Positions 3,865 through 18,153 of a stretch of 45,125 nt of DNA are shown piece after piece. Position numbers and translations under genes: made by a program. Within the stretch, counting starts at the first letter, position 1. Every line of letters starts with the position of its first letter. This DNA comes from a bacterium. Its GTDB lineage: Bacteria; Vulcanimicrobiota; Xenobia; Xenobiales; Xenobiaceae. The stretch covers positions 1-45,125 of the forward strand of contig JAFSXH010000154.1 in NCBI GenBank assembly GCA_017444165.1. Direction: 5' to 3'. The notes under the pieces were generated by a model. The model did no database searches. It saw only the letters and a program-made list of their open reading frames with translations, and was not told the DNA's origin.

Positions 3865-4229
3865 TCGATATTAAAGAGACTGCCTTTGTTGATAAAGTGG
3901 AAAATTTGGCTTTTCCTGTTGCTGAAGGGTACAAAAATATTACTGTAAATGAGCCGTATTTTGTGGGCCATTTTCCTGGTAATCCCATTATGCCAGGTGT
4001 TTTGCAGTTAGAGGCCTTGGTGGAGTTGGCCTGGTTCTTGTATGATTCTAAAGTGGAAATGGTTAAGGTAGTGCGTTTGAAATTTAGAAGGCCTGTGCGT
4101 CCTGGGGATCGCCTCGATCTCCATGTGGAAGAGACTGAACGTCAGGAAGATGTGGTTAGTGTAGCTGTGCGAGCTTCTGTGGATGGCGAGACTTCTTGTG
4201 AAGGTCTTGTACAATTTAAGCTAATGTAG
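3861..4229 (+). CDS. fabZ: 3-hydroxyacyl-ACP dehydratase FabZ (short N-terminus)
   Basis: NEPYFVGHFPGNPIMPGVLQLEAL hot-dog active-site motif. The ATGA overlap with the lpxC stop indicates translational coupling. Confidence 0.9.
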   Translation: MIDIKETAFVDKVENLAFPVAEGYKNITVNEPYFVGHFPGNPIMPGVLQLEALVELAWFLYDSKVEMVKVVRLKFRRPVRPGDRLDLHVEETERQEDVVSVAVRASVDGETSCEGLVQFKLM

Positions 4230-4281
4230 GAAAAAGAATCCTAGCTACGAAAAATGCGGAATCAATTGAGAGGAGTAGAGT

Positions 4282-5223: not shown

Positions 5224-6029
5224 TTCATCCTACTGCGGTTGTACATCCTAAGGCTAATATAGGTGAAGGTGTCAATATAGGTCCATTTTCAGTTATAGGT
5301 GAAAACGTAACCATAGGTGAGGGTACTGAGGTTATGTCCTCGGTGATTATTGATGGTTGGACTACTATTGGCAAAAACAACAGGATTTATCATGGGGCGA
5401 GTATAGGTTTAGCTCCTCAGGATTTCAGTTACAAGGGACAGCGGGCCTTTGTGGAGATCGGCGATAACAACGATATTCGTGAATATGTCACTATTCACCG
5501 AGCTGCCAATGAAGATGGTTTAACATATGTTGGCAGTGATAATCTCTTGATGGCTTATGTCCATGTAGCCCACAATTGCCACGTGGGCAATCAGGTCACT
5601 ATCGCCAATTACGCTGGTATGGCTGGACATACTGTAGTGGAAGATCAGGCTGTTTTGGGTGGTTTGGTCGGTATACATCAGCATACGCGCATAGGTAGGT
5701 TATGTATGATTGGTGGCTGTTCTAAGATAAATAAGGACATACCGCCTTTTAGTATAGTTGATGGCAATCCTTGTAGAATCTTCGGTATGAACTTCCGCGG
5801 TATGCGCCGACGCGGTATCGATCAGAAGAGTCGTTTGGCGGTGCAGACTGCTATTACCATTTTGGGCAGTCGCGGCTTGAACATTGATGAAGCCGTAGAG
5901 ACTATTTTGCGCGAGGTGGAGCAGACTCCAGAGGTTGTTCATTTGGTAGAGTTTATTAAAGGTTCTTCGCGTATGGGTATTCTCAATAAGGGCTGTGGTG
6001 TTGGTATTAGGGCTGGAGAGAACAATTAA
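5220..6029 (+). CDS. lpxA: Acyl-ACP--UDP-N-acetylglucosamine O-acyltransferase
   Basis: Aligns by eye along its full length with E. coli LpxA: IHPTAVVHP, VEIGDNN.IRE.VTIHR, VGSDNLLMAY.HVAHNC.VGN, GG...HQ and RRRG. Confidence 0.95.
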   Translation: MIHPTAVVHPKANIGEGVNIGPFSVIGENVTIGEGTEVMSSVIIDGWTTIGKNNRIYHGASIGLAPQDFSYKGQRAFVEIGDNNDIREYVTIHRAANEDGLTYVGSDNLLMAYVHVAHNCHVGNQVTIANYAGMAGHTVVEDQAVLGGLVGIHQHTRIGRLCMIGGCSKINKDIPPFSIVDGNPCRIFGMNFRGMRRRGIDQKSRLAVQTAITILGSRGLNIDEAVETILREVEQTPEVVHLVEFIKGSSRMGILNKGCGVGIRAGENN

Positions 6030-6065
6030 GGGTTAGATATCTAGGATTTAGATAGAGAAGGGGAG

Positions 6066-6099
6066 CCCCTCTGATATTTTTAGAGGGGTTCAATTTTTT
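6066..6099 (+). terminator. Rho-independent terminator after lpxA
   Basis: Stem cccctct / agagggg (7 bp) with a 9-nt loop, followed by ttcaatttttt. Confidence 0.6.
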
Positions 6100-6120
6100 G
6101 GACGATTAAGGCTAGTTTAG

Positions 6121-8544
6121 ATGGCGGAAGATAAAAAAAAGTTTTTAGTGGCTTTGACGGCTATCGATCCTTCTGCGGATATGCAGGGAGCGGTTTTAGT
6201 TAAGGCGTTGCGCGAGATAAATCCGAATATCGAGTTTGTCGGAATTGGTGGGCCGCAGATGGCCTCGGCAGGGGTAGATTTATGGCTTAAAACGATAAAT
6301 TCTGCTGTCATTGGGCCTGGTGAAGTTATTGTTCATTTGCCCGTTTATATACTCAATTATTGGAAGATCCGCAATAAACTTTTAGAAGTTCGTCCTGATC
6401 TTACGATCCTCATAGATTCACCTGCTGTCAATATGCGCTTTGCGGGTGTCTTGCGCCGCCATGGTTTAAATAGTGTTTATTATTTCCCACCATCAGCCTG
6501 GAGTAAGAGTGAAAAGCGGTTGCGCGACATCTTTGGACGCACAGATCGCGTTATCTGTGTTTTTGAGAGAAATGCTGAGAGTTATCGATGTTTAGGGATG
6601 GATGTTGATTATTGGGGCCACCCTATGAACGATATGCCTGAATTAAATTATACCCCTGAAGAGGCAAGAAAGAGGCTAGGGGTTGAGGGAGAGATTTTGG
6701 CTCTGCTTCCTGGCAGTCGTCAAGCGGAGATCGATAATTTGTTGCCTGTATTTTTGAAGACTGTGGAAATTTTGCACGCCGAGAGGCCGTCTTTGCAAGT
6801 TTTGATCCCTTGTGCTACTGAAGATCTGTCGGAAAAGATCCGCAGTTTAGTTCCTCAAAGTTGTGATTATATACGTTTAGTGGCGGGACAATCACATTGG
6901 GTGATGTTAGCTAGTCGAGCCGCACTTATGAGTTCGGGGACGGCTAGTTTAGAAGCTATGATGTTCAATTTGCCTATGGTTTTGTGTTATCGTTTTGGTT
7001 TGTTTAACGCCATTTTAGGAAAGTTTCTTTTGGCTACAGGTATATTAAAGGTCGATCATATTGGAGCTCCCAGTTTAATCTTAGATCGTCGCATTACTCC
7101 AGAATTTATTCAGGAGGAAGTTACACCAGAAAATCTAGTTCCCGCTGTACGCCAATATTTAGATGACACACCAGAGAGAAAGCAGATTTTGCAAGATCTG
7201 ACTTGGGCGCGTCAGAGTATGGGAGAGCCTGGAACGGTCAAAAAGATCGCCGCTTCTGTTTATAAACTTGTAGAGAAGTTTCATCAAGAACGTGAAAGTA
7301 AAAATATCGATGTGGTAATTACCTCCAATTCTCCAGGTGAAGTTTCTACTTGGGTAAAGCATACAGTTACAGCTTTAAAAGAGAGGTGTACTTCTGACCG
7401 TCTGCGTGTAGTTGTGGCTTTAGTTCCTTGTCCCTATGCTTCGGGGGCTGAGGAAGATGTGGCCAAGAGTATATCTGGAGTCGATATAGTTTTGACTCCC
7501 AGAGAGACGGTAAAGTTGGCTTTTCTGGGAAAATTGGAAAAGTATACACCTAACCATTTTGGGGTAGTTGTCTTTTTGGGCGGTGATCTTGCTCATGCGG
7601 CCATTCTGTCGTGTCGCTTGCATTACAAATCTATTGCTTATGCAGAACGCCACAATATATTGTTGCCGTTCTTTACACGCCTCTGTTCTGGTAACTTAGA
7701 TCTGCAGAACAGTTTAGTAAAAGATGGATATAAAAATGTAGACTACGTGGGCAACCTCTGTGTAGATGGTGTCAACGAGTGTGTCAAAACTTTTAAACAT
7801 GAGAGATCTGGCAAATGTGTTGGTATCTTTCCAGGATCGCGTTTTTTGCACGTTAAGGTATCTTTAGGTGTATTTTTGCGAGTAGCGGCCAGAATTAAGA
7901 GCTTAATGCCCCAGACGCGTTTTCTTATCTCTGTCTCTCCTTTTGTCTCTCAATTTAAGTTGAAGTCTGCGCTTTTGCGTCCCTTCTCGATGGGGTTGCC
8001 GACAGCAAAAGGTTATATAAAGGATAAAGATACTTTGCAAGTTGAGTGTGAAGATGAGCTCGAAGGATCGGCAGGTCGCTCCTTTGAGGTTGAGATATTT
8101 TGGGGTGAACCTTACAGAGCTATGGCTGAGATAGATATGGCTCTGACTATACCAGGTACGAATACAGGCGAGTTAGCTTGTTGTGGTAAGCCGATGGTGG
8201 TGGGGCTATCTAGTGCCGCTCCCTATCCACGCGGTGGTTTAGGTGGTTTGTTGGATAAGTTGCCAATAATGGAGAGCATTAAAAAATACCTGCGTCACAA
8301 GTCATACTTGCGTCAGGGATTTGCCGCTCAACCGAATCGAGTAGCTCAAAAGATGGTTATACCAGAAATTGTTGTCGGTCGGGATAGTTTAGTTTTGGCA
8401 GAACCAATTTTAGAATGGTTGAAAGATGAAGATAAGTGTCTGGCTAAAGGACGAGAGTTAAGTGAACTTATGGGCAATCTCAACGAGGCGGGGAGTAATA
8501 TTGCTAAAACGATATTGAATGTTTTGAATTTGAATGATGAGTAA
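6121..8544 (+). CDS. lpxB: Lipid-A-disaccharide synthase fused to a second LpxB-like (GT19-type) domain
   Basis: Residues 1 to ~385 look like canonical LpxB (SADMQGA.L...L, IDSPAVN, YYFPPSAW, LLPGSRQAEI, SGTASLEAM). Residues ~395-807 form a second domain with SNSPGEVSTW, IFPGSRFLHV and IPGTNTGELA, resembling LpxB-related proteins. Total length is 807 aa versus about 380 for LpxB. Confidence 0.85.
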   Translation: MAEDKKKFLVALTAIDPSADMQGAVLVKALREINPNIEFVGIGGPQMASAGVDLWLKTINSAVIGPGEVIVHLPVYILNYWKIRNKLLEVRPDLTILIDSPAVNMRFAGVLRRHGLNSVYYFPPSAWSKSEKRLRDIFGRTDRVICVFERNAESYRCLGMDVDYWGHPMNDMPELNYTPEEARKRLGVEGEILALLPGSRQAEIDNLLPVFLKTVEILHAERPSLQVLIPCATEDLSEKIRSLVPQSCDYIRLVAGQSHWVMLASRAALMSSGTASLEAMMFNLPMVLCYRFGLFNAILGKFLLATGILKVDHIGAPSLILDRRITPEFIQEEVTPENLVPAVRQYLDDTPERKQILQDLTWARQSMGEPGTVKKIAASVYKLVEKFHQERESKNIDVVITSNSPGEVSTWVKHTVTALKERCTSDRLRVVVALVPCPYASGAEEDVAKSISGVDIVLTPRETVKLAFLGKLEKYTPNHFGVVVFLGGDLAHAAILSCRLHYKSIAYAERHNILLPFFTRLCSGNLDLQNSLVKDGYKNVDYVGNLCVDGVNECVKTFKHERSGKCVGIFPGSRFLHVKVSLGVFLRVAARIKSLMPQTRFLISVSPFVSQFKLKSALLRPFSMGLPTAKGYIKDKDTLQVECEDELEGSAGRSFEVEIFWGEPYRAMAEIDMALTIPGTNTGELACCGKPMVVGLSSAAPYPRGGLGGLLDKLPIMESIKKYLRHKSYLRQGFAAQPNRVAQKMVIPEIVVGRDSLVLAEPILEWLKDEDKCLAKGRELSELMGNLNEAGSNIAKTILNVLNLNDE

Positions 8545-9121
8545 TAAACGAGAAATTTTTTTCCGCTACAGGGGAGCGATTATGGCTGTAGTGGCTTTAG
8601 TCGTCTTAATAGTGGCTTCTCCCAGCTTAAAGTCTTACTTAGCAGGTTTAATGTTGGGAATATTGGGCGAGTTGATCCGCGTTTGGGCCATTGGTTGGAC
8701 GGGCGAACACACTCGTGCTCAATCTCTGCGCGCACCGTTTTTAGTTACACAAGGTCCTTACAGTTTGGTACGCAACCCTCTGTATTTGGGCAATATTTTA
8801 AATTATTGCGGAGTGTTGCTGGCCGCAATTGGTTCTATGTCTGCGCTGGGAGCTGCTCTGCTTACTTTAAGCAGTGGTTTAATTATTTATGTGGTTTATT
8901 CTGGTTGTATCGCAGTGGAGGAGCAGTTTTTGCAAGAGCATTTTGGCGAGGCTTTCACGGCTTACAAAGATTCTGTGCCTCGTTTATGGCCCCATTGGCG
9001 AGATGTTATCAGCGGCGGGCAGTATGAATTTGCCTGGGAGCGAGTTAAATTTGAAGTCACGACCATATTTTGGTGGTTAGTGAGTTGGTCTGTTTTGCTT
9101 TACAAACTTTTGATGATCTGA
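8534..9121 (+). CDS. ICMT/PEMT-family membrane methyltransferase (LmtA-like candidate)
   Basis: Multi-TM protein of 195 aa. Motifs GPYSLVRNPLYLGNIL (the RHPxYxG-type motif) and VEEQFLQEHFGEAFTAYKDSVPR (the EE..L...FG..Y..Y motif). The start overlaps the end of lpxB. Confidence 0.75.
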   Translation: MMSNKREIFFRYRGAIMAVVALVVLIVASPSLKSYLAGLMLGILGELIRVWAIGWTGEHTRAQSLRAPFLVTQGPYSLVRNPLYLGNILNYCGVLLAAIGSMSALGAALLTLSSGLIIYVVYSGCIAVEEQFLQEHFGEAFTAYKDSVPRLWPHWRDVISGGQYEFAWERVKFEVTTIFWWLVSWSVLLYKLLMI

Positions 9122-10224
9122 GCCATACGTTCGGCTCCACCTGGAGGCCCCAGACGTTCCTTGCCAATATTAGCGCGGCGCAATCTATCTTCAGGATTGT
9201 TTATTAAGTTTGCTAAGGCTTCGATTATCTTTTCATCGTTATCTGGAGTAACAATGAGGGCTTCGCCTAAGAGTCCTTTTTGGCGGGTGCGATACCAGCG
9301 GAGATTTTGCGGATCTGCATCGTAGGCTATTACGGGTATACCCCAACCTGCCGCCTGCTCGTGAGCTGTGCCTGCCAAACCCAAAGCGACTTGGCTGTAT
9401 TTGAATACGTCAGCAATATGGCCTTTGATGAAGAATATACGCAGATTATCTTTAGTGTTATTTAATTGGAACCAGTCAGGATAATTCAGAGGTTTTAAAT
9501 TATCTGATCCCACTAATTTTTCTATTTCTATTGAGTGAGCTACGGCTACTAGGGCGCAGATCGGTCGTTCTAACTTTTGGGCAAATTTTTCGGAAAGCTG
9601 GAGAAGGCGGGGCATAACTTCATAAGTAGCTTGACGACTGCCTGGAAAGAGAGCTAGACCGATCTCGCCTGTTTTGAGCGTGAAGTTAATGTTTTGAGGT
9701 ATGAGGCCATCCATCATGGCGTTACCTACCCAAAGGGCTTTTACACCTTTTTGGCGCAAATCCTGAGCTGTGAGCTCATCACGAACTAGAGAGCGTACTT
9801 TTCCAAAACGCAAAATTAGTGATTCTAGATAAGAATAGGCGTGGTGATAATTAGATTTAGCCGTACCAATAAAAATGATAGGTCTAATTCCTGAAATAAT
9901 GCTGAGTACAACTGGCCAAAGATCGCCCACCGCCACAATTTTTGTATATTCATTTCTATTAGAACGCAACCAAAAGATCTGTTTTAAAATTAGTCCCAAG
10001 AGTCCATTTTGTAAATCTTGCCAAAAATTATTTAAGTTCTCTTTTATGAGACCACCACTAGGCATAACTTGACGGGGGCCGCAAAGTGGGGCTAGATCTC
10101 TGTAGGCCTCACCTTGGCCTACTAGTGGCATAACTTCGAGATCTACATCTTGTAAGTTACGAATTATCTGAGCGGCGATGGCATCTTCTCCCGCACCATT
10201 AGAAATAAATAAAATTTTGGACAT
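9100..10224 (-). CDS. LpxB-related glycosyltransferase (lipid-A-disaccharide synthase-related protein)
   Basis: ILFISNGAGEDAIA N-terminus and LFPGSRQATYEV (the same PGSR motif as LpxB). Length 374 aa. It resembles the stand-alone LpxB-related family I know from cyanobacteria. Confidence 0.7.
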   Translation of the reverse strand: MSKILFISNGAGEDAIAAQIIRNLQDVDLEVMPLVGQGEAYRDLAPLCGPRQVMPSGGLIKENLNNFWQDLQNGLLGLILKQIFWLRSNRNEYTKIVAVGDLWPVVLSIISGIRPIIFIGTAKSNYHHAYSYLESLILRFGKVRSLVRDELTAQDLRQKGVKALWVGNAMMDGLIPQNINFTLKTGEIGLALFPGSRQATYEVMPRLLQLSEKFAQKLERPICALVAVAHSIEIEKLVGSDNLKPLNYPDWFQLNNTKDNLRIFFIKGHIADVFKYSQVALGLAGTAHEQAAGWGIPVIAYDADPQNLRWYRTRQKGLLGEALIVTPDNDEKIIEALANLINNPEDRLRRANIGKERLGPPGGAERMAQIIKSL

Positions 10225-10230
10225 AATTTT

Positions 10231-10983
10231 CTAAACCTTAATTAATCGATGGGTGCTCCTCTCTGGATTATCAAAATCATAATCTAAAAGACCCACATAC
10301 TGACCATAACAACCAGTTTGTGTGATATATACCCCTTCTTTTTGGATAGGTTCTGATAAAGCTGTGTGGCTGTGTCCCCCTAAGATCCAAGTTCCTTTAG
10401 GCAGGCGAGGGGCTAACTCTAGATCTCGCTCTAAACCTAAATGGCTTAGGATCAGTATATTTTTGTTTTGGATAAATATCTTTTGTGCTAGTTTAGCTGT
10501 AGTTTCTATTGGATCGAAAAAACGAAATTTAAATATTTTCTCCCAAAAACAGTTATGACGATACTGTACGGGAGTAACTCCGATCAGCGTTAAATTTTCC
10601 ACGTTGATCGCCGCTGTCCAGCGTTTACGGATCTTGTTCTCTCGCCAATCTTGATAAGCGCGATCCACCAAGTTGGTACTGTCATCATTAGGGCATTCAT
10701 TCAGATCTGAGAGATTGCTACAGAGGAGGGGAAAATTTCTCTCTTCTGAGCGTATGTCCAGGACGCGTCGTTGGTAATTAAATTCGCGATTGCCCATAGC
10801 CATAGCTCGGCAACGGAGCTTATTCATTTTGTGTAAAATTGGCTCAGAACGGCGATAAATTGTGTTAGATCCTGCTAGAGCATCTCCACTGTCAACATAA
10901 ATATCTTTATCGGTTATGCTCCTAGTTAGCCAGAGAAGAGCCTCGTTGCAATTGTGCATATCATTAGTGTGATAGATCTGCAT
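10231..10983 (-). CDS. Calcineurin-like metallophosphoesterase, LpxH-sized, with a GNRE motif (candidate UDP-2,3-diacylglucosamine hydrolase)
   Basis: Motifs D8-x-H10 (HTNDMHN), G33-D34 (DSGDALAG), G64-N65-R66-E67 (MGNREFNY), LSH and GGHSH. Length 250 aa. It lies 6 nt upstream of the LpxB-related gene. Confidence 0.75.
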   Translation of the reverse strand: MQIYHTNDMHNCNEALLWLTRSITDKDIYVDSGDALAGSNTIYRRSEPILHKMNKLRCRAMAMGNREFNYQRRVLDIRSEERNFPLLCSNLSDLNECPNDDSTNLVDRAYQDWRENKIRKRWTAAINVENLTLIGVTPVQYRHNCFWEKIFKFRFFDPIETTAKLAQKIFIQNKNILILSHLGLERDLELAPRLPKGTWILGGHSHTALSEPIQKEGVYITQTGCYGQYVGLLDYDFDNPERSTHRLIKV

Positions 10984-10985
10984 AT

Positions 10986-11495
10986 TTATTTTGATTTAAC
11001 CGTCTGGGGAAGATCTTTAGCGATGGAGGGGAAGACGACTGAGGCGTAACCGATTAGCCAGAAAATACCAGCTACTAAAGGTGAACCTATCATGCAACCG
11101 ACTATTAAACCGATAATGCCTATACCCAAACTGGAGAGCATGATGCGCGGTTCTAAGAATATGGAGTAACCGAAAGAACCACCCAATATAGCTCCCACAA
11201 AACCGAAGGCCAACCCTTTGTTAAAGTCGGCAGTGTTAGTCGCCAGAGCCATACTAACTTTGGCTGCCTGCACTAAAGGTGAAGTGGAGTGACCAACATC
11301 AATGACGGAGTTAGCTCCCCACAAAAAACTCATAACCAAACCTAAAAAGGCAAAACCCATTATGGCCAGACGCTTTTGAGCTCCATCATCTTCAGGAGTT
11401 TCTGCGGAATTGTTAGCTACGTCGGTCGCCTCTTTTTGAGGAGCGGGATTGGCCTTTGCTAAACTCTTTTTTTTCTTATTACTGTTATTTGACAT
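10986..11495 (-). CDS. Small integral membrane protein with Gly-zipper-rich TM segments; function unknown
   Basis: Lys-rich cytoplasmic N-terminus followed by about four hydrophobic, Gly-rich segments (GFVGAILGGSFGY, GIGIIGLIVGCMIG). It sits between its operon neighbours with gaps of only 1-2 nt. Confidence 0.65.
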   Translation of the reverse strand: MSNNSNKKKKSLAKANPAPQKEATDVANNSAETPEDDGAQKRLAIMGFAFLGLVMSFLWGANSVIDVGHSTSPLVQAAKVSMALATNTADFNKGLAFGFVGAILGGSFGYSIFLEPRIMLSSLGIGIIGLIVGCMIGSPLVAGIFWLIGYASVVFPSIAKDLPQTVKSK

Positions 11496-11496
11496 A

Positions 11497-12456
11497 CTAT
11501 TCAGCCTTTTTTCTTATCTTTTGCCAATACTTTAAGGGAAGAGAACGCTGGGCAATCTTGCGCATATAAGCTTTGTGCATGATCGCGGGTTCCCCCGACC
11601 AGGTATTTTGACCAGCGGGAATATCCCCTTCCACAAGACTGCGGGCCGCTACTGTCGCAAAATCGCCAACTTTGGCCTCAGGTTGGAGCAAATTCTGTCC
11701 TGCCACTATGGATAGATTACCTGTTTGCGAATTCTCCCGCAGACAGGCTTGAGAGATCACTATAGCCAGAGGAGCAATATTTACGCCCTCTTTTATATTT
11801 ATGAGGTTATCTAAACGAGCTCCCGTACCTATTTGACAAGTATCGATCTGACAGCGTGCCCCGATCTCTACGTTGTCTCCTATTGTTGTCTTCGGTCCTA
11901 TATTAGTTAGAGCTCCTATTAAACATTTACGTCCTATTTGACAATCTTTTTTGATGTGTGCTCCAGCCAGAAGGCGGGTCTCCGCTCCTATGTGGCTGTT
12001 AGAGCCTACTTGAGCGTGGGCGTGTATTTCACAATGATCGCCAATATGAGCATCCTTCTCTATAATGGCATAAGGGCCGATGTAAGCGGTAGGTGAGATT
12101 GCAGCTGTAGGATCGACTATCGCCCGAGGATGAATCTGGGCTTCATAACGACGGCGGGGATAGAAGAGATCTAACAGTTGAGCAAAGGCCACGCGGGGAT
12201 TATCAACTGAGATCGTGGGAAATGTTTGTTCTATCTCTGTCAATTTATTAGAGATGACTATGGCAACAAAACCCAATTCTTTAGCTTTTTGATAAACTTC
12301 CAAATTGTCGGCAAAGGTTATAGTGTTGCTCAAATTGTGTCCGCAATTGACGGCATCTATACCAGTAATATCAGAGATCTCTAAATCATTAAACTCTTCG
12401 TTGAGGAGTTTACCAGAGATGTATTTGGCTAAGTCTTGTAATCTTTTTACCACCAT
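11497..12456 (-). CDS. LpxD paralog with the LpxD N-terminal domain and hexapeptide helix but a non-canonical active site
   Basis: The N-terminus aligns by eye with the E. coli LpxD uridine-binding domain (RLQDLAKYI, ITGID, ITFA, VDNPRVAFAQLLDLF). Hexapeptide repeats follow. There is no GFGY loop, and NIKEGVNIA sits where LpxD has QIAHNVVIG. Confidence 0.7.
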   Translation of the reverse strand: MVVKRLQDLAKYISGKLLNEEFNDLEISDITGIDAVNCGHNLSNTITFADNLEVYQKAKELGFVAIVISNKLTEIEQTFPTISVDNPRVAFAQLLDLFYPRRRYEAQIHPRAIVDPTAAISPTAYIGPYAIIEKDAHIGDHCEIHAHAQVGSNSHIGAETRLLAGAHIKKDCQIGRKCLIGALTNIGPKTTIGDNVEIGARCQIDTCQIGTGARLDNLINIKEGVNIAPLAIVISQACLRENSQTGNLSIVAGQNLLQPEAKVGDFATVAARSLVEGDIPAGQNTWSGEPAIMHKAYMRKIAQRSLPLKYWQKIRKKAE

Positions 12457-13769
12457 AATTGAGGATAATCACTCCAATTTTCTGTTGAATCGATAGTAGC
12501 TTCTTCAAAAATTAAATTTTTGGCCGCTAGAGGTACGGTTAAGGTACGTCCGTGCAAAAGCTGGTTGCGTCCTAAGCCGATAAGATCTTTACCTAATATG
12601 TCTTCGTATTTACCTCTGACTATGAACTGGGGAATACGACATATTGGCCGGCCATTTTTAAGAATAAAAGCTGTCTCAGCGCGACGGGCAAACTCACCTT
12701 TGTGCTTTAAATGAGGAGGCAGAGGGGTCAAGCGATCTAAGAAAACTCCGTAACCGACCTTTTCGCAGAGATCTCCAATTGAATATGGGCCTGCTTTGAG
12801 AGAAAGATTTGAGTAGCCAGGGTGAGGAGGAGCCCCCCAAGGACGAACAGCCAGACAAGAAGGGGGTAAATTGTTTAACTTGGCTGCACTCAAGTCGTAA
12901 AAACGATTTGATAATCTTCCATCTTCAATAATTGTCACTGGAACTTTGTTAAGTCCTTCGCCATCGAAAGGAACAGTTCCAAAACCTCCTGGTATTGTGC
13001 CATTGTCTTTGATAGTTATCTCTGGTGAGAGCCACTGTAATCCTTGAAGAGCTTCAGGTGGACAGGCAGAGTTTATGCGGAGTACGTCCATGGCGAAATC
13101 TTCTAAAAGTGAACCGCAAGCGTAATTGCTAAAAACTACGGGCAAAATGTAATTTTCTGGCCAGGCGATCTCTTCAGAAAGTATCGATCTCCAGGCTAAC
13201 AGGCAGAGCAACTCTGAGGGTGAGTGGTTGAGTGATGTTGAGTAGATATTAGCTCCCACAGGTATATCGTCACGAGAATTTAAAGAGAGCAGATGCAAAA
13301 CACGGTTGGCCGATCTCTGGCCCGCCCTGATCGTCAACTTCATTGTGTGTTGCAAGATACGGGCACTTATAGAGAAGCGTTTTTTAGGCAACATTGAAGG
13401 CAACATGAAATCTAACTCTTGCACGAAAGATTGCATTTTGTTTATAGATTCTTCTAATTGGCGGTTCATCTCTTCGCGTGTGCTGGTGTAAGGAGAAGAT
13501 ATGAAGCCTTTTTGTGAAAAAGAACCACTGGGGCCGGAACTTGCACTTTTTATGGCTAAAGTGAGGATCTCATCCTCAGACATTTCACCTTCAGACCAAG
13601 CGTACCCCAACTTGCCATCGATGTTGACTCTCAGACCAATACCCGAACGAAATCTCTGCTCTTCTGGTTTGGCTAAGTTTACCTCAGTATAAACTTCCTC
13701 ATCTATTTCCGCATCTCTGCATATGCCCAGAGTGCGCACGAGCAATTTACTAGCGTAACTGACCATCAC
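12447..13769 (-). CDS. TldD/PmbA-family protein (PmbA/TldE-like; no HExxxH)
   Basis: Motifs GKLGYAWSEG, FDGEGLNKVPVTIIEDGRL, GYGVFLDRL and GEFARRAETAFILKNG are typical of the family. Length 440 aa. No HExxxH motif is present. It overlaps both neighbouring genes. Confidence 0.7.
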   Translation of the reverse strand: MMVSYASKLLVRTLGICRDAEIDEEVYTEVNLAKPEEQRFRSGIGLRVNIDGKLGYAWSEGEMSEDEILTLAIKSASSGPSGSFSQKGFISSPYTSTREEMNRQLEESINKMQSFVQELDFMLPSMLPKKRFSISARILQHTMKLTIRAGQRSANRVLHLLSLNSRDDIPVGANIYSTSLNHSPSELLCLLAWRSILSEEIAWPENYILPVVFSNYACGSLLEDFAMDVLRINSACPPEALQGLQWLSPEITIKDNGTIPGGFGTVPFDGEGLNKVPVTIIEDGRLSNRFYDLSAAKLNNLPPSCLAVRPWGAPPHPGYSNLSLKAGPYSIGDLCEKVGYGVFLDRLTPLPPHLKHKGEFARRAETAFILKNGRPICRIPQFIVRGKYEDILGKDLIGLGRNQLLHGRTLTVPLAAKNLIFEEATIDSTENWSDYPQLWW

Positions 13770-14428
13770 TTTTCCTCAGGAGGAGAGATAACTAAAATTT
13801 GCAGAGGTATAAAATCGAACTTTCCTGCAGGGCAACAAGTATTTACATCATGTTCTGCTAAAGAAAACCCGTCTTGTAAATGGACTATCCAAGTATCTTC
13901 TAAATGGATATGCTTATGATAGACAAAGCCATTAATAGAGGCCCATTGTCTAAAAACTTTACGAGCAAATTCGCTGGAAGCTTTGACGGCTATAGTATCT
14001 AATCCCTGGCTTTCAGCTATACTTTGTAAACTCTCCAGTGCCAGAGAAGCTTCTCCTTTTTTAGCCTCAGAGAGATCCAAACCTGGATAGTTATTAAATT
14101 TGATCCTACTCCTAGTTTTTTTATAAACTCCTTGTAAAATAGCCTTTTGTAACTTTGGGTTAGATTGAGAATCGGCTTCTCTAGCTGATGGTAACACTTT
14201 ATAATCTTGCAAAATAACCGTAGATTCTGAATCTAGGTAGCGGCGCAAAGTTCCCTGCAGACCTTTAACCATAAAAGCCACAGGTATACCAGGTGCAAAT
14301 CTTTCCAGAGATACGTTCAACTGGCGACTATTTTTATCATAATCATGAGCCACAAAACGCAACCCTTCACCTGCAAAAGTATTTTGCAGTTTGTCTATGA
14401 TCTCTGTAACAGTGTATACGGGATTCAT
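13766..14428 (-). CDS. Hypothetical cytoplasmic protein
   Basis: A 220-aa ORF overlapping the downstream PmbA-like gene by 4 nt. It has no signal peptide, and I recognise no family. Confidence 0.55.
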   Translation of the reverse strand: MNPVYTVTEIIDKLQNTFAGEGLRFVAHDYDKNSRQLNVSLERFAPGIPVAFMVKGLQGTLRRYLDSESTVILQDYKVLPSAREADSQSNPKLQKAILQGVYKKTRSRIKFNNYPGLDLSEAKKGEASLALESLQSIAESQGLDTIAVKASSEFARKVFRQWASINGFVYHKHIHLEDTWIVHLQDGFSLAEHDVNTCCPAGKFDFIPLQILVISPPEEK

Positions 14429-14435
14429 TTACAGT

Positions 14436-15503
14436 TTACTTGTACTCTTCTTTTACAAAAGCTGTACCAGGATCAACCCTAGCAATTTTGTAAAATTCAT
14501 TCCACTCGTTTTCAAGTTTTTTAACTTTCTCTTTAGATACTTCTTTTTTCTTAAATTCTTCTTGAGCCTGTTTTTGGGCTTCGCTCAACAATTTTCCTCT
14601 AGCTGGATTCCAGAACTTAGCTCTAGCTACAGGATCATAGATGTTTTCTGAGTTGCGCAATCTTCCTAATTTCCTGTAAACGGTGTAACCTTTATCCAAA
14701 TAGAAGAGCGATTTGCTGGAAAGTGGATTCCACTTATATGATTGCCAAAGATAAGTTTCTGCGTAATCGAAATAATGTTCTGCAGAGTAATTGTTATCCG
14801 CCTGTCTTCCCAATGATATCTGATTGTAATAATATATACCAACCTGTAATTGAGCTTTTCCACTGGAGAAAAGATATTCAGAATAGATATATACACAACT
14901 CAACGTAATTAAAGTTAAAGGCAGAATGATGAAAACAAATATATTGAAGATACGCATGGGCCAAGTGGCGTTGGTCCAAAGCTTCTCTTTTCTGCTCTTA
15001 CCTACAGATATTCTCTCTTTGGCTGTGTAGTAATCTTGTTTAATAGTGGCCGCAGTTTTAGAAGCTAGAGCGCGAATTTTGGGAGTAAATTTGCCAGAAG
15101 AGGAAATTTTGTAACATATGTCTATGGCGACTTCTGCAAAACCTGCATGACCCAATTCCTCCGCCGTCATAAGCCAATCTTCCGGGTCTGTTTCCTCCAC
15201 ACTTCTGACGCAATTGCCGAAGCGAATGCTGTCATCAACCTCTAGAGCCTTGACAAATTGTATGGCCGCTTTCTCAGGTTCCCCCATAGCTACCGCACAT
15301 ATTCCTAAACCGAAAAGAGCATTAATATCATTGGGAAATCTCTTTAGACTATTTAAGAGATCAAAATTCAATTCGTTAAAACGTTGCTCTTTAAATAACT
15401 GTAACTGTTCATCTGTAAATATCTCTGACAAAGACGCAGTTGTTTTGTCAACTACGGGAGGTTGTACCTGTATAGTATTTTGGGGAGGAAGGTTGAGGCT
15501 CAA
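14436..15503 (-). CDS. Membrane protein with a TPR-like N-terminal region and a Lys/Glu-rich C-terminus
   Basis: A 355-aa ORF and the first gene of the minus-strand operon. TPR-like helices (ALFGLGICAVAMGEPEKAAIQFVKALEVD) and one clear TM segment (IFNIFVFIILPLTLITLSCVYIY). Confidence 0.55.
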   Translation of the reverse strand: MSLNLPPQNTIQVQPPVVDKTTASLSEIFTDEQLQLFKEQRFNELNFDLLNSLKRFPNDINALFGLGICAVAMGEPEKAAIQFVKALEVDDSIRFGNCVRSVEETDPEDWLMTAEELGHAGFAEVAIDICYKISSSGKFTPKIRALASKTAATIKQDYYTAKERISVGKSRKEKLWTNATWPMRIFNIFVFIILPLTLITLSCVYIYSEYLFSSGKAQLQVGIYYYNQISLGRQADNNYSAEHYFDYAETYLWQSYKWNPLSSKSLFYLDKGYTVYRKLGRLRNSENIYDPVARAKFWNPARGKLLSEAQKQAQEEFKKKEVSKEKVKKLENEWNEFYKIARVDPGTAFVKEEYK

Positions 15504-15611: not shown

Positions 15612-16286
15612 ATGTGCGTATCGTTCAGAAAATGTTGGGAATTGTCAAAAATTTTAGGATTAATATTTATCTTTTTGTCCTTAGAAGGATGTCCCCAGAT
15701 AAAAGATGACAAGACAAAAATGGAAGAGCAAGAGAGGGCAGAAAAAGAGAGAGTTTCTGTAGAGAGTGATTCCACTAGAGTGGAAGATAAGATTAATGAT
15801 GTTGTCACTAAAGTTGAAGAAGTTAAAGACTCTCTTCAAAGCAATTACGGAAAACAGGAAGTAAATTCTCTTTCTCTCAGTGCCAAAGGGGACACTCCCT
15901 GGGACTTAAAAGCGGACAAAATTGATTATGATGACAATTCTAAACGAGCCAGGGCTTCAAAAATAGTTTGGAATTTATTGGATAAAGATGGTAATTCGCT
16001 TTTAGAACTTAGCGGCGATGCAGCTGTAGTCAACGTGCCTACCCAGGGAATAGCTTTCGAAGGGCCAGTGCAGGCAAAGGGAGCGCACGGAGAGGAAATT
16101 ACCTGTCAAAAACTAGTTTGGGATAGTAAAAATCGCCAATTGCATGGCTCTAACGGTGTAAGAGTCGTCAGAGAAGGCTCAATTATGACAGGAAGAGAGA
16201 TGATCGCCTCTCCAGATCTCAAACGCGTGGAAGTCAAGGGGGATGTGCGTGTTTCTTTTACGGCTAATCCTCTGAAAAGTGAGTAA
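15612..16286 (+). CDS. LptC/LptA-like (OstA-fold) LPS transport protein
   Basis: N-terminal hydrophobic anchor or lipobox-like LSLEGC. Beta-rich C-terminal part (LKADKIDYD, LSGDAAVV, VWDSKNRQLHGSNGVRV, VEVKGDVRV). Located immediately upstream of lptB. Confidence 0.55.
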   Translation: MCVSFRKCWELSKILGLIFIFLSLEGCPQIKDDKTKMEEQERAEKERVSVESDSTRVEDKINDVVTKVEEVKDSLQSNYGKQEVNSLSLSAKGDTPWDLKADKIDYDDNSKRARASKIVWNLLDKDGNSLLELSGDAAVVNVPTQGIAFEGPVQAKGAHGEEITCQKLVWDSKNRQLHGSNGVRVVREGSIMTGREMIASPDLKRVEVKGDVRVSFTANPLKSE

Positions 16287-16291
16287 TATTT

Positions 16292-17026
16292 GTGTCTATT
16301 GAAATTGACAGTTTAGTTAAAAGTTTCAAAGACCGTCGCGTCGTCGATGGCGTTAGCTTGAAGGTTGAACCTGGTGAAGTGGTTGGCCTTTTAGGATCGA
16401 ACGGGGCTGGTAAAACCACTACTTTTTACATGGTTGTAGGTTTGATAAAACCGAACAGTGGCCGTATTATTCTCAATGGGCAGGATGTGACTAATTTCCC
16501 CATGCATCAGAGAGCGCGTTTAGGGATAGGTTACTTACCTCAAGAATCTTCGGCTTTTCGTAAATTGAGCGTTGAAGATAACTTGCGTTTACTTTGGGAA
16601 GTTAATGGTGTGAGCAAGGTCGAACAGAAGGAGCGATTGGAGTCTCTTTTGGAGGAGTATCAGCTCTTTAAGGTACGCAAGAGTAAAGCTATTGAGCTTT
16701 CTGGTGGAGAGCGCAGACGTTTGGAAATAGCCCGTTCTTTAGCTATCAAACCCCAATTTTTGCTCTTGGATGAACCCTTTTCTGGTGTCGATCCTATAGC
16801 TGTGGCCTCCATACAAAATATAATTCGCAAGTTGAAGAAGAGCGGTTTGGGAATATTGATAACCGATCATAATGTTCGCGAGACTCTGGCTATAACTGAT
16901 AGAGCTTATATAATTCGGGAAGGGCATATCTTGGTCTCTGGCAGTGCCGTCGAGATTGCCAATAATCCAGATGCTCGCAAGTATTACTTAGGTGAGTCTT
17001 ACCAGACAGGATTTGAGAACTCATGA
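16292..17026 (+). CDS. lptB: LPS export ABC transporter ATPase
   Basis: GTG start. Walker A GSNGAGKTTTFY, Q-loop YLPQE, signature LSGGERRRLEIARSLA, Walker B LLLDEP, H-loop ITDHN. LptB-type C-terminus ARKYYLGE. Confidence 0.9.
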   Translation: MSIEIDSLVKSFKDRRVVDGVSLKVEPGEVVGLLGSNGAGKTTTFYMVVGLIKPNSGRIILNGQDVTNFPMHQRARLGIGYLPQESSAFRKLSVEDNLRLLWEVNGVSKVEQKERLESLLEEYQLFKVRKSKAIELSGGERRRLEIARSLAIKPQFLLLDEPFSGVDPIAVASIQNIIRKLKKSGLGILITDHNVRETLAITDRAYIIREGHILVSGSAVEIANNPDARKYYLGESYQTGFENS

Positions 17027-18153
17027 AGATTATTGATCGTTACATCATGCTGGAAATGGCTGGTCCCTTTCTCTTTGGGGTCTGTGCCTTCACCCTTTTG
17101 TTCTTTTCGGCAGAGACTTTAATGGGCGTAGCCAAGATGATCTTAGAGTCTCAAGCGGGGGCGGGAATGGTCGTCAAGTACCTCTTTAATCGTCTGCCTT
17201 ATGTCTTAATTATGACCTTTCCCATGTCTACACTTTTGGGAGCCTTGATGGCCTACGGAAGGTTATCTGGAGATAGTGAAATTGTGGCCCTAAAAGCTGG
17301 TGGAGTTGGCTTTTTGCGTATATTTATGCCTGGATTTATCTTCTGTTTGGTGATCTCTATGATCTCATTGGCTATAAATCAATATTGGGTTCCTCCAGCC
17401 ACTAAGCAGGCGTACAGTATGGTTTTAGAATTACGAGCTCCCGATCAGATCGAGAGGGCTTTGATAACTTCTCCGCGTCTGTTATCTAACGGTGAAGAGC
17501 AGATGATTTACGCTCACGTTCTCAATGTCAAAGAGCAGACGATGAAAGGTGTCTATGTTCATTTTTTCTTAAACAATAAGCGCGTGCGTGAGTTGTACAC
17601 TCAAGAAGCGCGTTGGAATAAGGAAAAGCATGTCTGGGAGGTTCTCAATTTGGAGGCGCGGGAGTTTGACAAAGATAGCGGCCAACTGCGTTATGATGTT
17701 AAAGGCAGTGATGGTTGGAGTCCTATGACTAAAACAGATTCCCCTGCCAGTCCCGATCAATTAGCCCAACGCAAATTGCGTCGCGAAGAGATGACTAGTC
17801 AAGAGCTGGCTAATTATCTGAATTCTTTGCCTCCTATAGGTAAGACTAATCCAGACGAGTACCGCAAGCGCAACAAATATATTGTTATGTACTATCAAAA
17901 GGTTTCTTTGCCTATGACCTGTTTAGTATTTGGTGCTTTCGCCGTGCCTTTAGGACTCAGGCCTCAGCGCACTAGTACTTCTATAGGTTTTGGTCTTTCG
18001 TTATTCTTCATTTTGCTCTATTATGTACTCATGACTATCGGAATGATGTTGGGTGAGAATGGCACGGTGGCCGCTTGGTTTGCTGCTTGGCTCCCTAATA
18101 TTGTCTTTGCGATAGTAGGAACATTTTTAGTTATAGACGCTTCACGCAAATAG
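17023..18153 (+). CDS. LptF/LptG-family LPS export permease
   Basis: YjgP/YjgQ-type N-terminus (IIDRYIMLEMAGPFLFG), six TM segments with a large periplasmic insert, and an ATGA overlap with lptB. Confidence 0.85.
   Translation: MKIIDRYIMLEMAGPFLFGVCAFTLLFFSAETLMGVAKMILESQAGAGMVVKYLFNRLPYVLIMTFPMSTLLGALMAYGRLSGDSEIVALKAGGVGFLRIFMPGFIFCLVISMISLAINQYWVPPATKQAYSMVLELRAPDQIERALITSPRLLSNGEEQMIYAHVLNVKEQTMKGVYVHFFLNNKRVRELYTQEARWNKEKHVWEVLNLEAREFDKDSGQLRYDVKGSDGWSPMTKTDSPASPDQLAQRKLRREEMTSQELANYLNSLPPIGKTNPDEYRKRNKYIVMYYQKVSLPMTCLVFGAFAVPLGLRPQRTSTSIGFGLSLFFILLYYVLMTIGMMLGENGTVAAWFAAWLPNIVFAIVGTFLVIDASRK

What the first reader, a model, noticed from the sequence alone, without database searches (positions are those of the whole stretch)
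9100..15503. Minus-strand 7-gene operon resembling a divergent shadow copy of Raetz-pathway steps 3-5 with unrelated partners
Seven ORFs are packed with spacings of -10 to +7 nt. In transcription order they are:
- a TPR/TM protein
- a 220-aa unknown
- a PmbA/TldE-like protein
- an LpxD paralog
- a Gly-rich 4-TM protein
- an LpxH-sized metallophosphoesterase
- an LpxB-related glycosyltransferase

The three enzyme families, in this gene order, match consecutive lipid A steps: N-acylation, UDP-diacylglucosamine hydrolysis and disaccharide formation. The operon converges on, and overlaps, the canonical lpx operon. It could supply missing or split steps of lipid A synthesis. Alternatively it could build a separate glucosamine-based glycolipid. 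I do not know of a described pathway with this composition, especially one with a TldE-like protein embedded in it.
Basis: partly seen in the sequence, partly recalled or inferred. Interest (0 to 1): 0.78.

Follow-up and report, generated by a model that had tools for sequence, protein, structure and literature searches.

The report
Lipid A accessory operon with LpxH-like candidate
The seven genes are real and belong to the bacterium's lipopolysaccharide gene cluster; rather than a spare copy of the pathway, they seem to supply its missing fourth enzyme in a previously unrecognised form, together with a catalytically dead partner for a truncated third enzyme.

Summary
The seven minus-strand ORFs (9100-15503) exist as described and are conserved in 9-11 related gut genomes of the class Xenobia (phylum Vulcanimicrobiota/Eremiobacterota). 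They are not a shadow pathway. The operon joins two modules.

**3' module (4-TM protein, metallophosphoesterase, TIGR03492 glycosyltransferase).** This module is ancient. In most of the 88 related loci it lies co-directionally just after lpxB, in the order lpxD-lpxC-fabZ-lpxA-lpxB-MPE-GT-(O-antigen ligase)-lptCBFG.
- The MPE is a UshA/5'-nucleotidase-type domain.
- Its catalytic His is invariably Arg (GNRE), a substitution otherwise described only in LpxH.
- It is mutually exclusive with LpxI (50 loci versus 4, none with both).
- It is fused to the GT in two lineages.
- I therefore read it as a candidate fourth class of UDP-2,3-diacylglucosamine pyrophosphatase.
- The GT keeps LpxB's PGSR/Thr/Glu donor site. 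Its acceptor is unknown.

**5' module (TPR/TM protein, 220-aa unknown, TldE-fold protein, "LpxD2").** This module is lineage-specific.
- LpxD2 has lost the catalytic His and the substrate loop but keeps the uridine-binding N-domain.
- It occurs only where the canonical LpxD lacks that domain.
- This suggests a split LpxD.

All functions are inferred from sequence and gene context. Nothing has been tested biochemically.

The parts
14436..15503 (-). First gene: 355-aa protein with an N-terminal TPR-like region, one TM helix (aa 188-206) and a Lys/Glu-rich tail. Function unknown.
   Evidence: Sub-threshold TPR_17/TPR_2 hits. TM scan. Conserved at 39-44% identity in only 9 loci of the close clade.
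13766..14428 (-). 220-aa soluble protein with no recognisable family.
   Evidence: No hit in Pfam, NCBIfam or PDB sequences. Homologs at 32-42% identity in 10 loci only.
12447..13769 (-). Orphan TldE/PmbA-fold protein of 440 aa. It has no HExxxH zinc motif, an invariant FDGEG motif and a C-terminal WW.
   Evidence: PF19289 E 3e-27. AF2 model pLDDT 91. Foldseek best matches are TldD/TldE, TMq 0.70-0.77. Only 17 close homologs among 5.8 billion proteins. Invariant residues listed. In L089 it sits directly before LpxD2, away from the lpx cluster.
11497..12456 (-). 'LpxD2': full-length LpxD-like protein that keeps the N-terminal uridine-binding domain and the beta-helix but has lost the catalytic apparatus. 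Probable pseudo-enzyme.
   Evidence: NF002060 180.6 bits (cut-off 207) and TIGR01853 164.9 bits (cut-off 242.5). The E. coli H239 position is E/A/K/D and so on in 24/24 members. The loop at Ec 182-197 is deleted in 24/24. D216, R217, T223, N240 and H276 are not conserved. F41 is kept in 22/24.
10986..11495 (-). 169-aa small membrane protein with 4 predicted TM helices, rich in Ala, Gly and Ser. It lies immediately upstream of the MPE and may be its membrane partner.
   Evidence: TM scan. Homolog upstream of the MPE in 20 loci. A 166-aa equivalent is present in L082.
10231..10983 (-). 250-aa single-domain metallophosphoesterase of the UshA/5'-nucleotidase type with an invariant GNRE motif. Candidate UDP-2,3-diacylglucosamine pyrophosphatase, that is, a functional analog of LpxH/LpxI/LpxG.
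   Evidence: All metal ligands are invariant. The model has pLDDT 97. The protein is mutually exclusive with LpxI. It is adjacent to the GT in 65/68 loci.
9100..10224 (-). 374-aa TIGR03492 glycosyltransferase, an LpxB-family (GT19-like) paralog with an intact UDP-donor site. Its acceptor is unknown.
   Evidence: TIGR03492 272 bits against a cut-off of 219. The PGSR loop, Thr and Glu are conserved in 87-88 members. Fused to the MPE in P0048 and P0288. 304 loci found in GTDB species genomes.
464..1168 (+). Context: canonical but N-terminally truncated LpxD (234 aa). It is the beta-helix plus C-terminal part and retains the catalytic His. Proposed partner of LpxD2.
   Evidence: Aligns to E. coli LpxD residues 97-319 and includes 'IGHN'. 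NF002060 model positions 101-331. The ORF starts 5 nt after the skp stop.
3034..9121 (+). Context: lpxC, fabZ, a GnnA-like dehydrogenase, lpxA, an LpxB-LpxB2 fusion (6121-8544) and a PEMT/LmtA-like methyltransferase (8534-9121). This operon converges on the minus-strand operon.
15612..18153 (+). Context: lptC, lptB and lptF/G, transcribed divergently from the operon's 5' end.

Best explanation
The operon is an accessory arm of the lipid A/LPS super-cluster. It was assembled in one gut lineage of Xenobia from two modules.

**Module A (10986-9100): 4-TM protein, MPE, TIGR03492 GT.** This is an old, widely distributed unit that normally follows lpxB.
- The MPE most likely performs Raetz step 4. 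It would hydrolyse UDP-2,3-diacylglucosamine to lipid X and UMP at a dinuclear metal centre. Arg66 of GNRE would neutralise the beta-phosphate, as Arg80 does in LpxH. (Inferred.)
- The GT is a catalytically intact LpxB paralog. It most likely transfers a sugar from a UDP-sugar onto a lipid A precursor, either lipid X or the tetra-acyl disaccharide, before O-antigen ligation and Lpt export. The acceptor and the sugar are inferred and unknown.

**Module B (15503-11497): TPR/TM protein, unknown 220-aa protein, TldE-fold protein, LpxD2.** This module is lineage-specific.
- LpxD2 is a dead LpxD that still carries the uridine-binding N-domain.
- It most likely assembles with, or docks onto, the truncated catalytic LpxD (464-1168) and restores UDP-substrate binding. 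(Inferred, lower confidence.)
- The TldE-fold protein is its conserved companion and is non-proteolytic by motif. Its role is unknown.

**Shown here:** gene content, conservation, motifs, folds and co-occurrence. **Not shown:** any activity.
For: **Position**
- In L091 and L092 the order is bamA-skp-lpxD-lpxC-fabZ-lpxA-lpxB-MPE-GT-Wzy_C-lptC-lptB-lptFG, with overlapping stops and starts.
- The MPE is co-directional with the GT, and its tblastn match ends less than 400 bp upstream of the GT match, in 65/68 loci.

**Complementarity with LpxI**
- Of 56 loci holding both lpxA and the GT, 50 have the MPE without LpxI and 4 have LpxI without the MPE. Two have neither, and none has both.
- E. coli LpxH finds nothing in any locus or in the window.

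**Chemistry**
- The MPE is homologous in sequence and fold to the UshA/5'-nucleotidase catalytic domain. UshA is a UDP-sugar hydrolase.
- All metal ligands are invariant: D8, H10, D34, N65, H181, H204, H206.
- The motif III His is Arg in 67/67 locus homologs.
- In the exhaustive profile search it is Arg in 72/72 short representatives, against His in 68/71 long 5'-nucleotidases.
- This His-to-Arg change is reported as unique to LpxH, where the Arg binds the lipid X phosphate (PMC5016852, PMC3087551). E. coli LpxH has GNRD.

**Fusions**
- Two independent MPE-GT fusion proteins exist, P0048 and P0288.

**GT**
- It keeps LpxB's PGSR, Thr277 and Glu281 equivalents (residue roles from PMC5785501).

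**LpxD2**
- It has lost the catalytic residues but keeps F41.
- In the GT-anchored loci it occurs only where the skp-adjacent LpxD is short: 12 loci have both, and the 18 or so loci with a full-length LpxD have none.

**TldE-like and LpxD2**
- They are adjacent in the window's clade and in the distant locus L089.
Against: - There is no biochemical or genetic test of any of these proteins.
- I could not scan whole genomes. A canonical lpxH, lpxI or lpxG elsewhere in these genomes is not excluded.
- The MPE's structural neighbours are soluble nucleotidases. No LpxH-like lipid-binding cap was identified, and LpxH itself is not among the top 50 fold matches.
- The most distant MPE homolog (L090, 30% identity) lies with HAD, ArnT-like and GT2 genes, not lpx genes.
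- Halanaerobiales carry the GT and, per the literature, also LpxK and WaaA (PMC2626281, PMC5007114). The GT is therefore not simply a WaaA substitute, and its step is undefined.
- Four loci (L028, L030, L032, L044) have a short LpxD with no LpxD2 or N-domain gene within 10 kb.
- L088 has the TldE-like gene alone.
- Co-transcription of the seven genes is inferred from spacing only.
Confidence: 0.55

Rival explanations
1. The LpxD paralog, the phosphoesterase and the LpxB-like GT form a parallel 'shadow' pathway. It would make a second glucosamine-based glycolipid distinct from lipid A.
For: The three families appear in the Raetz order within one operon. A complete-looking canonical set, lpxA/C/D/B, lies next door.
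Against: - LpxD2 lacks the catalytic His, the substrate loop and other invariant LpxD residues in all 24 members, so there is no step-3 enzyme in the set.
- The three genes are contiguous only in the close clade. Elsewhere LpxD2 is convergent to MPE-GT or absent.
- MPE-GT are embedded between lpxB and the O-antigen ligase/lptC.
- No other step-4 enzyme is present in the clusters.
Confidence: 0.08
2. The MPE is not the step-4 enzyme. Instead it would be a helper of the LpxB-family GTs. It could be a UDP or UDP-sugar hydrolase that relieves product inhibition or edits donors. Alternatively it could be a lipid A phosphatase or pyrophosphatase that remodels the 1 or 4' position.
For: - Closest relatives are nucleotidases and UDP-sugar hydrolases.
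- It is fused to a GT rather than to LpxB proper.
- The distant homolog L090 sits in an ArnT-like lipid A modification context.
Against: - Strict mutual exclusivity with LpxI (50 versus 4, none with both) is what a functional replacement predicts, not a helper.
- The LpxH-type His-to-Arg change points to diphosphate substrate binding (PMC5016852).
- A PEMT/LmtA-like methyltransferase in the same clusters implies that the 1-phosphate is retained. This last point is an inference.
Confidence: 0.2
3. The 5' module (TPR/TM protein, 220-aa protein, TldE-like protein, LpxD2) has no direct role in LpxD catalysis. It would be a regulatory or quality-control unit for envelope synthesis, loosely comparable to TPR-protein/protease control of LpxC in E. 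coli, or an unrelated function that happens to be co-transcribed.
For: - TldE-like/LpxD2 also occur together far from lpx genes, next to flagellar genes in L089.
- The TldE-like gene is alone in L088.
- Four loci have a short LpxD with no LpxD2 nearby.
- The TPR and 220-aa genes are confined to 9-10 loci.
- The comparison with LapB/FtsH rests on my own recollection only.
Against: - In the GT-anchored loci LpxD2 is found only with a truncated LpxD and never with a full-length one.
- It keeps exactly the part the truncated enzyme lacks, including the uridine-stacking Phe.
- The TldE-like protein has no protease motif.
Confidence: 0.25

Closest known systems
LpxH (UDP-2,3-diacylglucosamine diphosphatase, calcineurin-like phosphoesterase)
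   Same: Metallophosphoesterase superfamily. About 240-250 aa and single-domain. All five metal-binding blocks are present. Motif III has Arg in place of the catalytic His (GNRD in E. coli, GNRE here). Encoded with lpx genes.
   Different: No sequence match to E. coli LpxH or to any NCBIfam LpxH model at E<=0.01. The fold neighbours are UshA and CD73, not LpxH. No LpxH-type lipid-binding cap was recognised. The Arg is therefore convergent.
LpxI and LpxG (the other two known step-4 enzymes)
   Same: Same inferred reaction. Like lpxI, the gene sits inside the lpxA-lpxB neighbourhood and is mutually exclusive with it. Like LpxG, it is a non-LpxH metallophosphoesterase.
   Different: LpxI has an unrelated fold (LpxI_N/LpxI_C). 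LpxG has GNHD and its own N-terminal TM helix (PMC4807358). Here the motif is GNRE, there is no TM helix, and a separate 4-TM protein is encoded upstream.
UshA / 5'-nucleotidase (UDP-sugar hydrolase)
   Same: Closest relative by sequence (2z1a, E 1e-11) and by fold (TMq about 0.71). Same dinuclear site and same diphosphate-cleaving chemistry.
   Different: It lacks the C-terminal substrate-binding domain and the signal peptide. The catalytic His is replaced by Arg. The context is lipid A genes.
LpxB (lipid A disaccharide synthase, GT19)
   Same: The GT shares the N-terminal Gly-Glu motif, the PGSR pyrophosphate loop and the Thr/Glu ribose-phosphate ligands. It is a GT-B type enzyme and is encoded next to lpxB.
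   Different: It is a separate family (TIGR03492). It gives no Pfam LpxB hit and no PDB sequence hit. It coexists with a true LpxB and with a further paralog, 'LpxB2'. Its substrate is unknown.
LpxD and the LpxD1/LpxD2 pairs of Francisella and Leptospira
   Same: Same three-part architecture: N-domain, left-handed beta-helix, C-terminal helix. Two paralogs in one genome.
   Different: In the known pairs both copies are active enzymes with different chain-length preference (PMC10248169). Here one copy is catalytically dead and the other lacks the N-domain.
TldE/PmbA (non-catalytic subunit of the TldD/E protease)
   Same: Whole-chain fold match (6j6a TMq 0.77; 5njf). FDGEG motif present. No HExxxH.
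   Different: No TldD partner is nearby. Identity to canonical members is below 30%. The family is tiny (17 members). It is linked to a dead LpxD.

Membership tests
LpxH | Metallophosphoesterase fold with complete dinuclear metal ligands | tested here: met
   PF00149 over 1-207. D8, H10, D34, N65, H181, H204 and H206 are invariant. Model pLDDT 97.
LpxH | Arg replacing His in the GNH(D/E) block | tested here: met
   GNRE in 67/67 locus homologs and 72/72 short representatives. E. coli LpxH has GNRD. The role of the Arg is described in PMC5016852.
LpxH | Sequence membership: a match to LpxH family models or to E. coli LpxH | tested here: not met
   No LpxH model among NCBIfam hits at E<=0.01. 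tblastn with E. coli LpxH finds nothing. LpxH is not in the top 50 fold matches.
LpxH | UDP-2,3-diacylglucosamine hydrolase activity, or complementation of lpxH | not testable with these tools
   Requires an enzyme assay or genetics.
UshA/5'-nucleotidase | N-terminal catalytic domain homology | tested here: met
UshA/5'-nucleotidase | C-terminal 5'-nucleotidase substrate-binding domain | tested here: not met
   The protein is 250 aa, and the family is 232-290 aa.
UshA/5'-nucleotidase | Catalytic His of GNHE | tested here: not met
   Arg is invariant.
LpxB (GT19) | Score above the LpxB family thresholds (TIGR00215, PF02684) | tested here: not met
   The only match is TIGR03492, at 272 bits. There is no Pfam hit.
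LpxB (GT19) | PGSR loop, Thr277 and Glu281 UDP-binding residues | tested here: met
   P194-G195-S196-R197, T286 and E289 are invariant. The Glu is offset by one residue relative to LpxB.
TIGR03492 (lipid-A-disaccharide synthase-related) | Score above the curated cut-off | tested here: met
   272.3 bits against 219.2.
LpxD | N-terminal uridine-binding domain plus left-handed beta-helix | tested here: met
   PF04613 at 25.8 bits, which is below threshold, plus Hexapep. The F41 equivalent is conserved.
LpxD | Catalytic His239 and associated residues (D216, R217, T223, H276, loop 182-197) | tested here: not met
LpxD | Score above the family cut-off | tested here: not met
   180.6 bits against 207, and 164.9 against 242.5.
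TldD/TldE | TldD/E fold over the whole chain | tested here: met
   Foldseek E 1e-27, TMq 0.70-0.77.
TldD/TldE | HExxxH zinc site (TldD type) | tested here: not met
   No such motif is present, and no invariant His appears among 18 members.
TldD/TldE | Adjacent TldD partner gene | tested here: not met
   None is found in the window or in related loci.

The most novel reading that the evidence does not exclude
Two linked claims.

1. A fourth, UshA-derived class of UDP-2,3-diacylglucosamine pyrophosphatase exists. It convergently acquired LpxH's His-to-Arg substitution. It fills the 'missing LpxH' gap in Vulcanimicrobiota/Eremiobacterota, in loci labelled Armatimonadota, and in other loci, and it works physically coupled to an uncharacterised LpxB-family glycosyltransferase.

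2. In Xenobia, LpxD has been split into two proteins. One is a catalytic beta-helix subunit. The other is a dead paralog that supplies the uridine-binding domain in trans, accompanied by an orphan TldE-fold protein.
Probability: 0.2. Interest if true: 0.8.

Novelty: new variant of a known kind. Interest (0 to 1): 0.64.

Why it matters
Step 4 of lipid A synthesis is currently assigned to only three unrelated enzymes: LpxH, LpxI and LpxG (PMC12444477). Some LPS-bearing lineages have no recognised step-4 enzyme (PMC3087551).

- **A testable fourth solution.** This candidate comes from a different branch of the metallophosphoesterases and carries the same unusual Arg. It would be a clean case of convergent active-site evolution. 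It would also improve LPS pathway annotation in uncultured phyla, including gut Xenobia.
- **Antibiotic relevance.** LpxH is an antibiotic target, so knowing which bacteria use other enzymes helps define inhibitor spectrum.
- **A split LpxD.** The pairing of a dead LpxD with a truncated LpxD would be a new example of a pseudo-enzyme completing an essential enzyme.
- **Extra LpxB paralogs.** The two additional LpxB-family glycosyltransferases (TIGR03492 and 'LpxB2') mark uncharacterised glycosylation steps on lipid A precursors.

Tried and rejected
**Interpretations rejected**
- The 'shadow pathway' and 'separate glycolipid' readings, for the reasons given under the rival explanations.
- The GT as a WaaA replacement. 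Halanaerobiales have the GT (L061, L064) and, per PMC2626281 and PMC5007114, also LpxK and WaaA.

**Searches that found nothing**
- E. coli LpxH, LpxK and WaaA by tblastn at E 1e-3 against the window and 83 loci gave no hits. This covers only about 10 kb either side of the GT, not whole genomes.
- Literature searches for TIGR03492, for Eremiobacterota lipid A and for any fourth step-4 enzyme found nothing relevant.
- PDB sequence searches with the GT and the 220-aa protein gave no hits.
- No separate LpxD N-domain gene was found in the four loci with only a short LpxD.
- Rfam, tRNA and promoter/terminator scans of the window were uninformative.

**Limits of the tools**
- The genes between LpxD2 and the TldE-like gene in the L014-type loci gave no useful Pfam hits.
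- Only two structure jobs were allowed, so the 220-aa protein, the GT and LpxD2 were not modelled.
- No multimer prediction was available to test an LpxD/LpxD2 heterotrimer.

Full report
**Observation**

The window carries seven tightly packed minus-strand ORFs at the stated coordinates. From those coordinates the spacings are +7, -4, -10, +1, +2 and +6 nt. The last gene overlaps the convergent PEMT-like gene by 22 nt.

- Weak TPR hits plus one TM helix.
- A 220-aa protein with no match.
- A PmbA_TldD C-terminal domain (E 3e-27).
- An LpxD-like hexapeptide protein that scores below the LpxD cut-offs.
- A 4-TM small protein.
- A Metallophos domain whose best NCBIfam hits are UshA and 5'-nucleotidases.
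- A TIGR03492 'lipid-A-disaccharide synthase-related protein', above its cut-off.

The flanks are LPS genes:
- Upstream on the plus strand: skp, a 234-aa LpxD, a 600-aa secreted protein, lpxC, fabZ, a GnnA-like dehydrogenase, lpxA, an 807-aa LpxB fusion and a PEMT/LmtA-like methyltransferase.
- Downstream on the plus strand: lptC, lptB and lptF/G.

The closest relatives are gut and rumen MAGs labelled UBP9, Candidatus Bruticola and Xenobia, in the phylum Vulcanimicrobiota/Eremiobacterota.

**Conservation and anatomy of the neighbourhood**

I aligned diverse homologs of the GT and scanned one genome per GTDB species. This gave 304 loci, of which 80 were retrieved. tblastn of all window proteins against them shows the following.
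- The complete seven-gene operon, in the same convergent layout, occurs only in the close clade (L001-L011; 32-63% identity per protein).
- In other Xenobia (L012-L022, L041, L082) the order is lpxB, LpxB2, PEMT, 4-TM, MPE, GT, all co-directional. LpxD2 lies convergent just beyond.
- In the remaining Vulcanimicrobiota/Eremiobacterota loci, and in loci whose records are labelled Armatimonadota, Dormibacterota or Synergistia, only MPE-GT persist, directly after lpxB.
- The clearest cases are L091 and L092: bamA, three skp genes, lpxD, lpxC, fabZ, lpxA, lpxB, MPE, GT, a Wzy_C O-antigen ligase, lptC, lptB (not called in L092), lptFG, DUF3084 and RuvX in L091 (two unannotated genes in L092). Stops and starts overlap.

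The window's operon is therefore a lineage-specific fusion, by inversion, of a widespread module (4-TM, MPE, GT) and a narrow one (TPR, 220-aa protein, TldE-like, LpxD2).

**The metallophosphoesterase**

- It is a single 250-aa domain.
- By sequence, its nearest solved relatives are 5'-nucleotidase and UshA N-terminal domains (2z1a, E 1e-11).
- A very confident model (pLDDT 97.4) matches the same proteins (TMq about 0.71). LpxH is not among the top 50.
- All metal ligands are invariant.
- The His of the GNHE block is Arg in every homolog from the loci, 67 of 67.
- I ran an exhaustive profile search of 1.84 billion representatives. Among 143 of its top 150 hits, all 72 short proteins have GNR[DE]. 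Of the 71 long multi-domain nucleotidases, 68 have GNH[DE].
[quoted passage not shown] E. coli LpxH reads GNRD.

The genomic evidence points the same way:
- The MPE is co-directional with the GT, and its tblastn match ends less than 400 bp upstream of the GT match, in 65 of 68 loci.
- Two divergent lineages encode MPE-GT fusion proteins (P0048, P0288).
- Among 56 loci that hold both lpxA and the GT, 50 have the MPE and no LpxI. Four Firmicutes-type loci have LpxI between lpxA and lpxB and no MPE. None has both.

A 2025 review still lists only LpxH, LpxI and LpxG for this step (PMC12444477). My literature searches found no description of this family. I conclude that the MPE is the best candidate for step 4 and is a functional analog of LpxH, not a member of the LpxH family. 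The caveats are that whole genomes could not be scanned, there is no biochemistry, and the most distant homolog sits in an ArnT-like context.

**The glycosyltransferase**

- TIGR03492 members have no Pfam or PDB sequence match.
- Even so, they keep the residues that bind UDP in LpxB: the PGSR loop, Thr277 and Glu281, plus the N-terminal Gly-Glu motif and a candidate base Asp. This holds across 87-88 sequences (residue roles from PMC5785501).
- A third paralog, 'LpxB2', is the C-terminal half of the window's 807-aa protein. It is a separate gene in most other loci and is present in 53 loci. It keeps the same residues.
- The GT lies between lipid A assembly and the O-antigen ligase/Lpt genes.
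- I infer that it glycosylates a lipid A precursor from a UDP-sugar.
- It is not a simple WaaA substitute. Halanaerobiales carry it (L061, L064) and are reported to have LpxK and WaaA as well (PMC2626281, PMC5007114).

**The LpxD paralog**

- The skp-adjacent LpxD (464-1168) aligns to E. coli LpxD residues 97-319. It keeps the catalytic His and the substrate loop but has no N-terminal uridine-binding domain.
- LpxD2 is the reverse. It keeps the N-domain, including the Phe41 equivalent, in 22 of 24 members.
- The catalytic His position in LpxD2 is occupied by variable residues in 24 of 24 members.
- The loop equivalent to E. coli 182-197 is deleted in all 24. D216, R217, T223, N240 and H276 are not conserved.
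- In the GT-anchored loci LpxD2 is seen only where LpxD is short: 12 loci have both. It is never seen with a full-length LpxD (about 18 loci). Four loci with a short LpxD have no LpxD2 within 10 kb.
- The simplest reading is a split LpxD, in which the dead paralog supplies UDP binding, perhaps in mixed trimers. This is inference only.

**The TldE-like protein and the two 5' genes**

- The model (pLDDT 91) has the complete TldD/E fold (TMq up to 0.77 to TldE).
- It has no HExxxH motif and no invariant His.
- The family has only 17 members among 5.8 billion proteins.
- It is adjacent to LpxD2 in the window's clade and in a distant relative away from lpx genes (L089). It is within about 3 kb of LpxD2 in L012-L017 and alone in L088.
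- It is probably a non-proteolytic companion of LpxD2. The TPR/TM protein and the 220-aa protein are confined to the close clade. Their roles are unknown.

**Verdict**

It is wrong about a shadow pathway or a separate glycolipid.
- The most valuable product is a specific, testable prediction: a fourth type of step-4 enzyme with a convergent LpxH-like Arg.
- A second prediction is a pseudo-enzyme/truncated-enzyme LpxD pair.
- None of this has been shown biochemically.

Noticed in passing
window 464-1168 (+): The canonical LpxD next to skp is only 234 aa. It lacks the whole N-terminal uridine-binding domain but keeps the catalytic His. The same short form (225-238 aa) occurs in many Xenobia loci.
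   Followed up: yes
window 6121-8544 (+): An 807-aa protein is a fusion of a bona fide LpxB (TIGR00215, 262 bits) with a second LpxB-family paralog, 'LpxB2' (aa ~390-807). LpxB2 is a separate ~390-420-aa gene right after lpxB in most other loci and is present in 53 loci. E. coli LpxB is a C-terminally swapped homodimer, so the fusion hints at an LpxB/LpxB2 heterodimer.
   Followed up: partly
window 4282-5223 (+) and 8534-9121 (+): A GnnA-like UDP-GlcNAc 3-dehydrogenase lies between fabZ and lpxA. A PEMT/ICMT-type methyltransferase has Leptospira LmtA as its best NCBIfam hit, far below the cut-off. Together they suggest a 2,3-diamino-glucose backbone and a methylated 1-phosphate, as in Leptospira. 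No GnnB aminotransferase is present in the window.
   Followed up: no
window 1230-3032 (+): A 600-aa protein with a signal-peptide-like N-terminus lies between lpxD and lpxC. It is conserved at that position in 27 loci and has only a sub-threshold DUF3370 hit. It may be an unknown outer-membrane component.
   Followed up: no
window 10960-10983 (-): The public gene call for the phosphoesterase (P0121, 242 aa) starts at Met9. That removes Asp8, the invariant first metal ligand. The 250-aa ORF from the ATG at 10983 is the correct one.
   Followed up: yes
L057 10001-13880: A locus labelled Synergistia carries two tandem TIGR03492 paralogs, followed by a B12-binding radical SAM enzyme.
   Followed up: no
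L090 529-4382: The most distant MPE homolog (30% identity) lies between a HAD hydrolase and an ArnT-like PMT_2/DUF8201 protein plus a GT2. This is a lipid A or polyprenyl-sugar modification type of context rather than an lpx operon.
   Followed up: no
window 18158-19509 (+): DUF3084 and a RuvX-like gene follow lptF/G. DUF3084 recurs after lptF/G in 22 distant loci. The DUF3084-RuvX pair is also seen in L091. DUF3084 may therefore be an unrecognised part of the Lpt/LPS cluster.
   Followed up: no
L061 11270-12142; L082 16747-18391: Sugar-1-phosphate nucleotidyltransferase genes lie just downstream of the GT in some loci, with a GHMP kinase in L082. They are possible suppliers of its nucleotide-sugar donor.
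   Followed up: no
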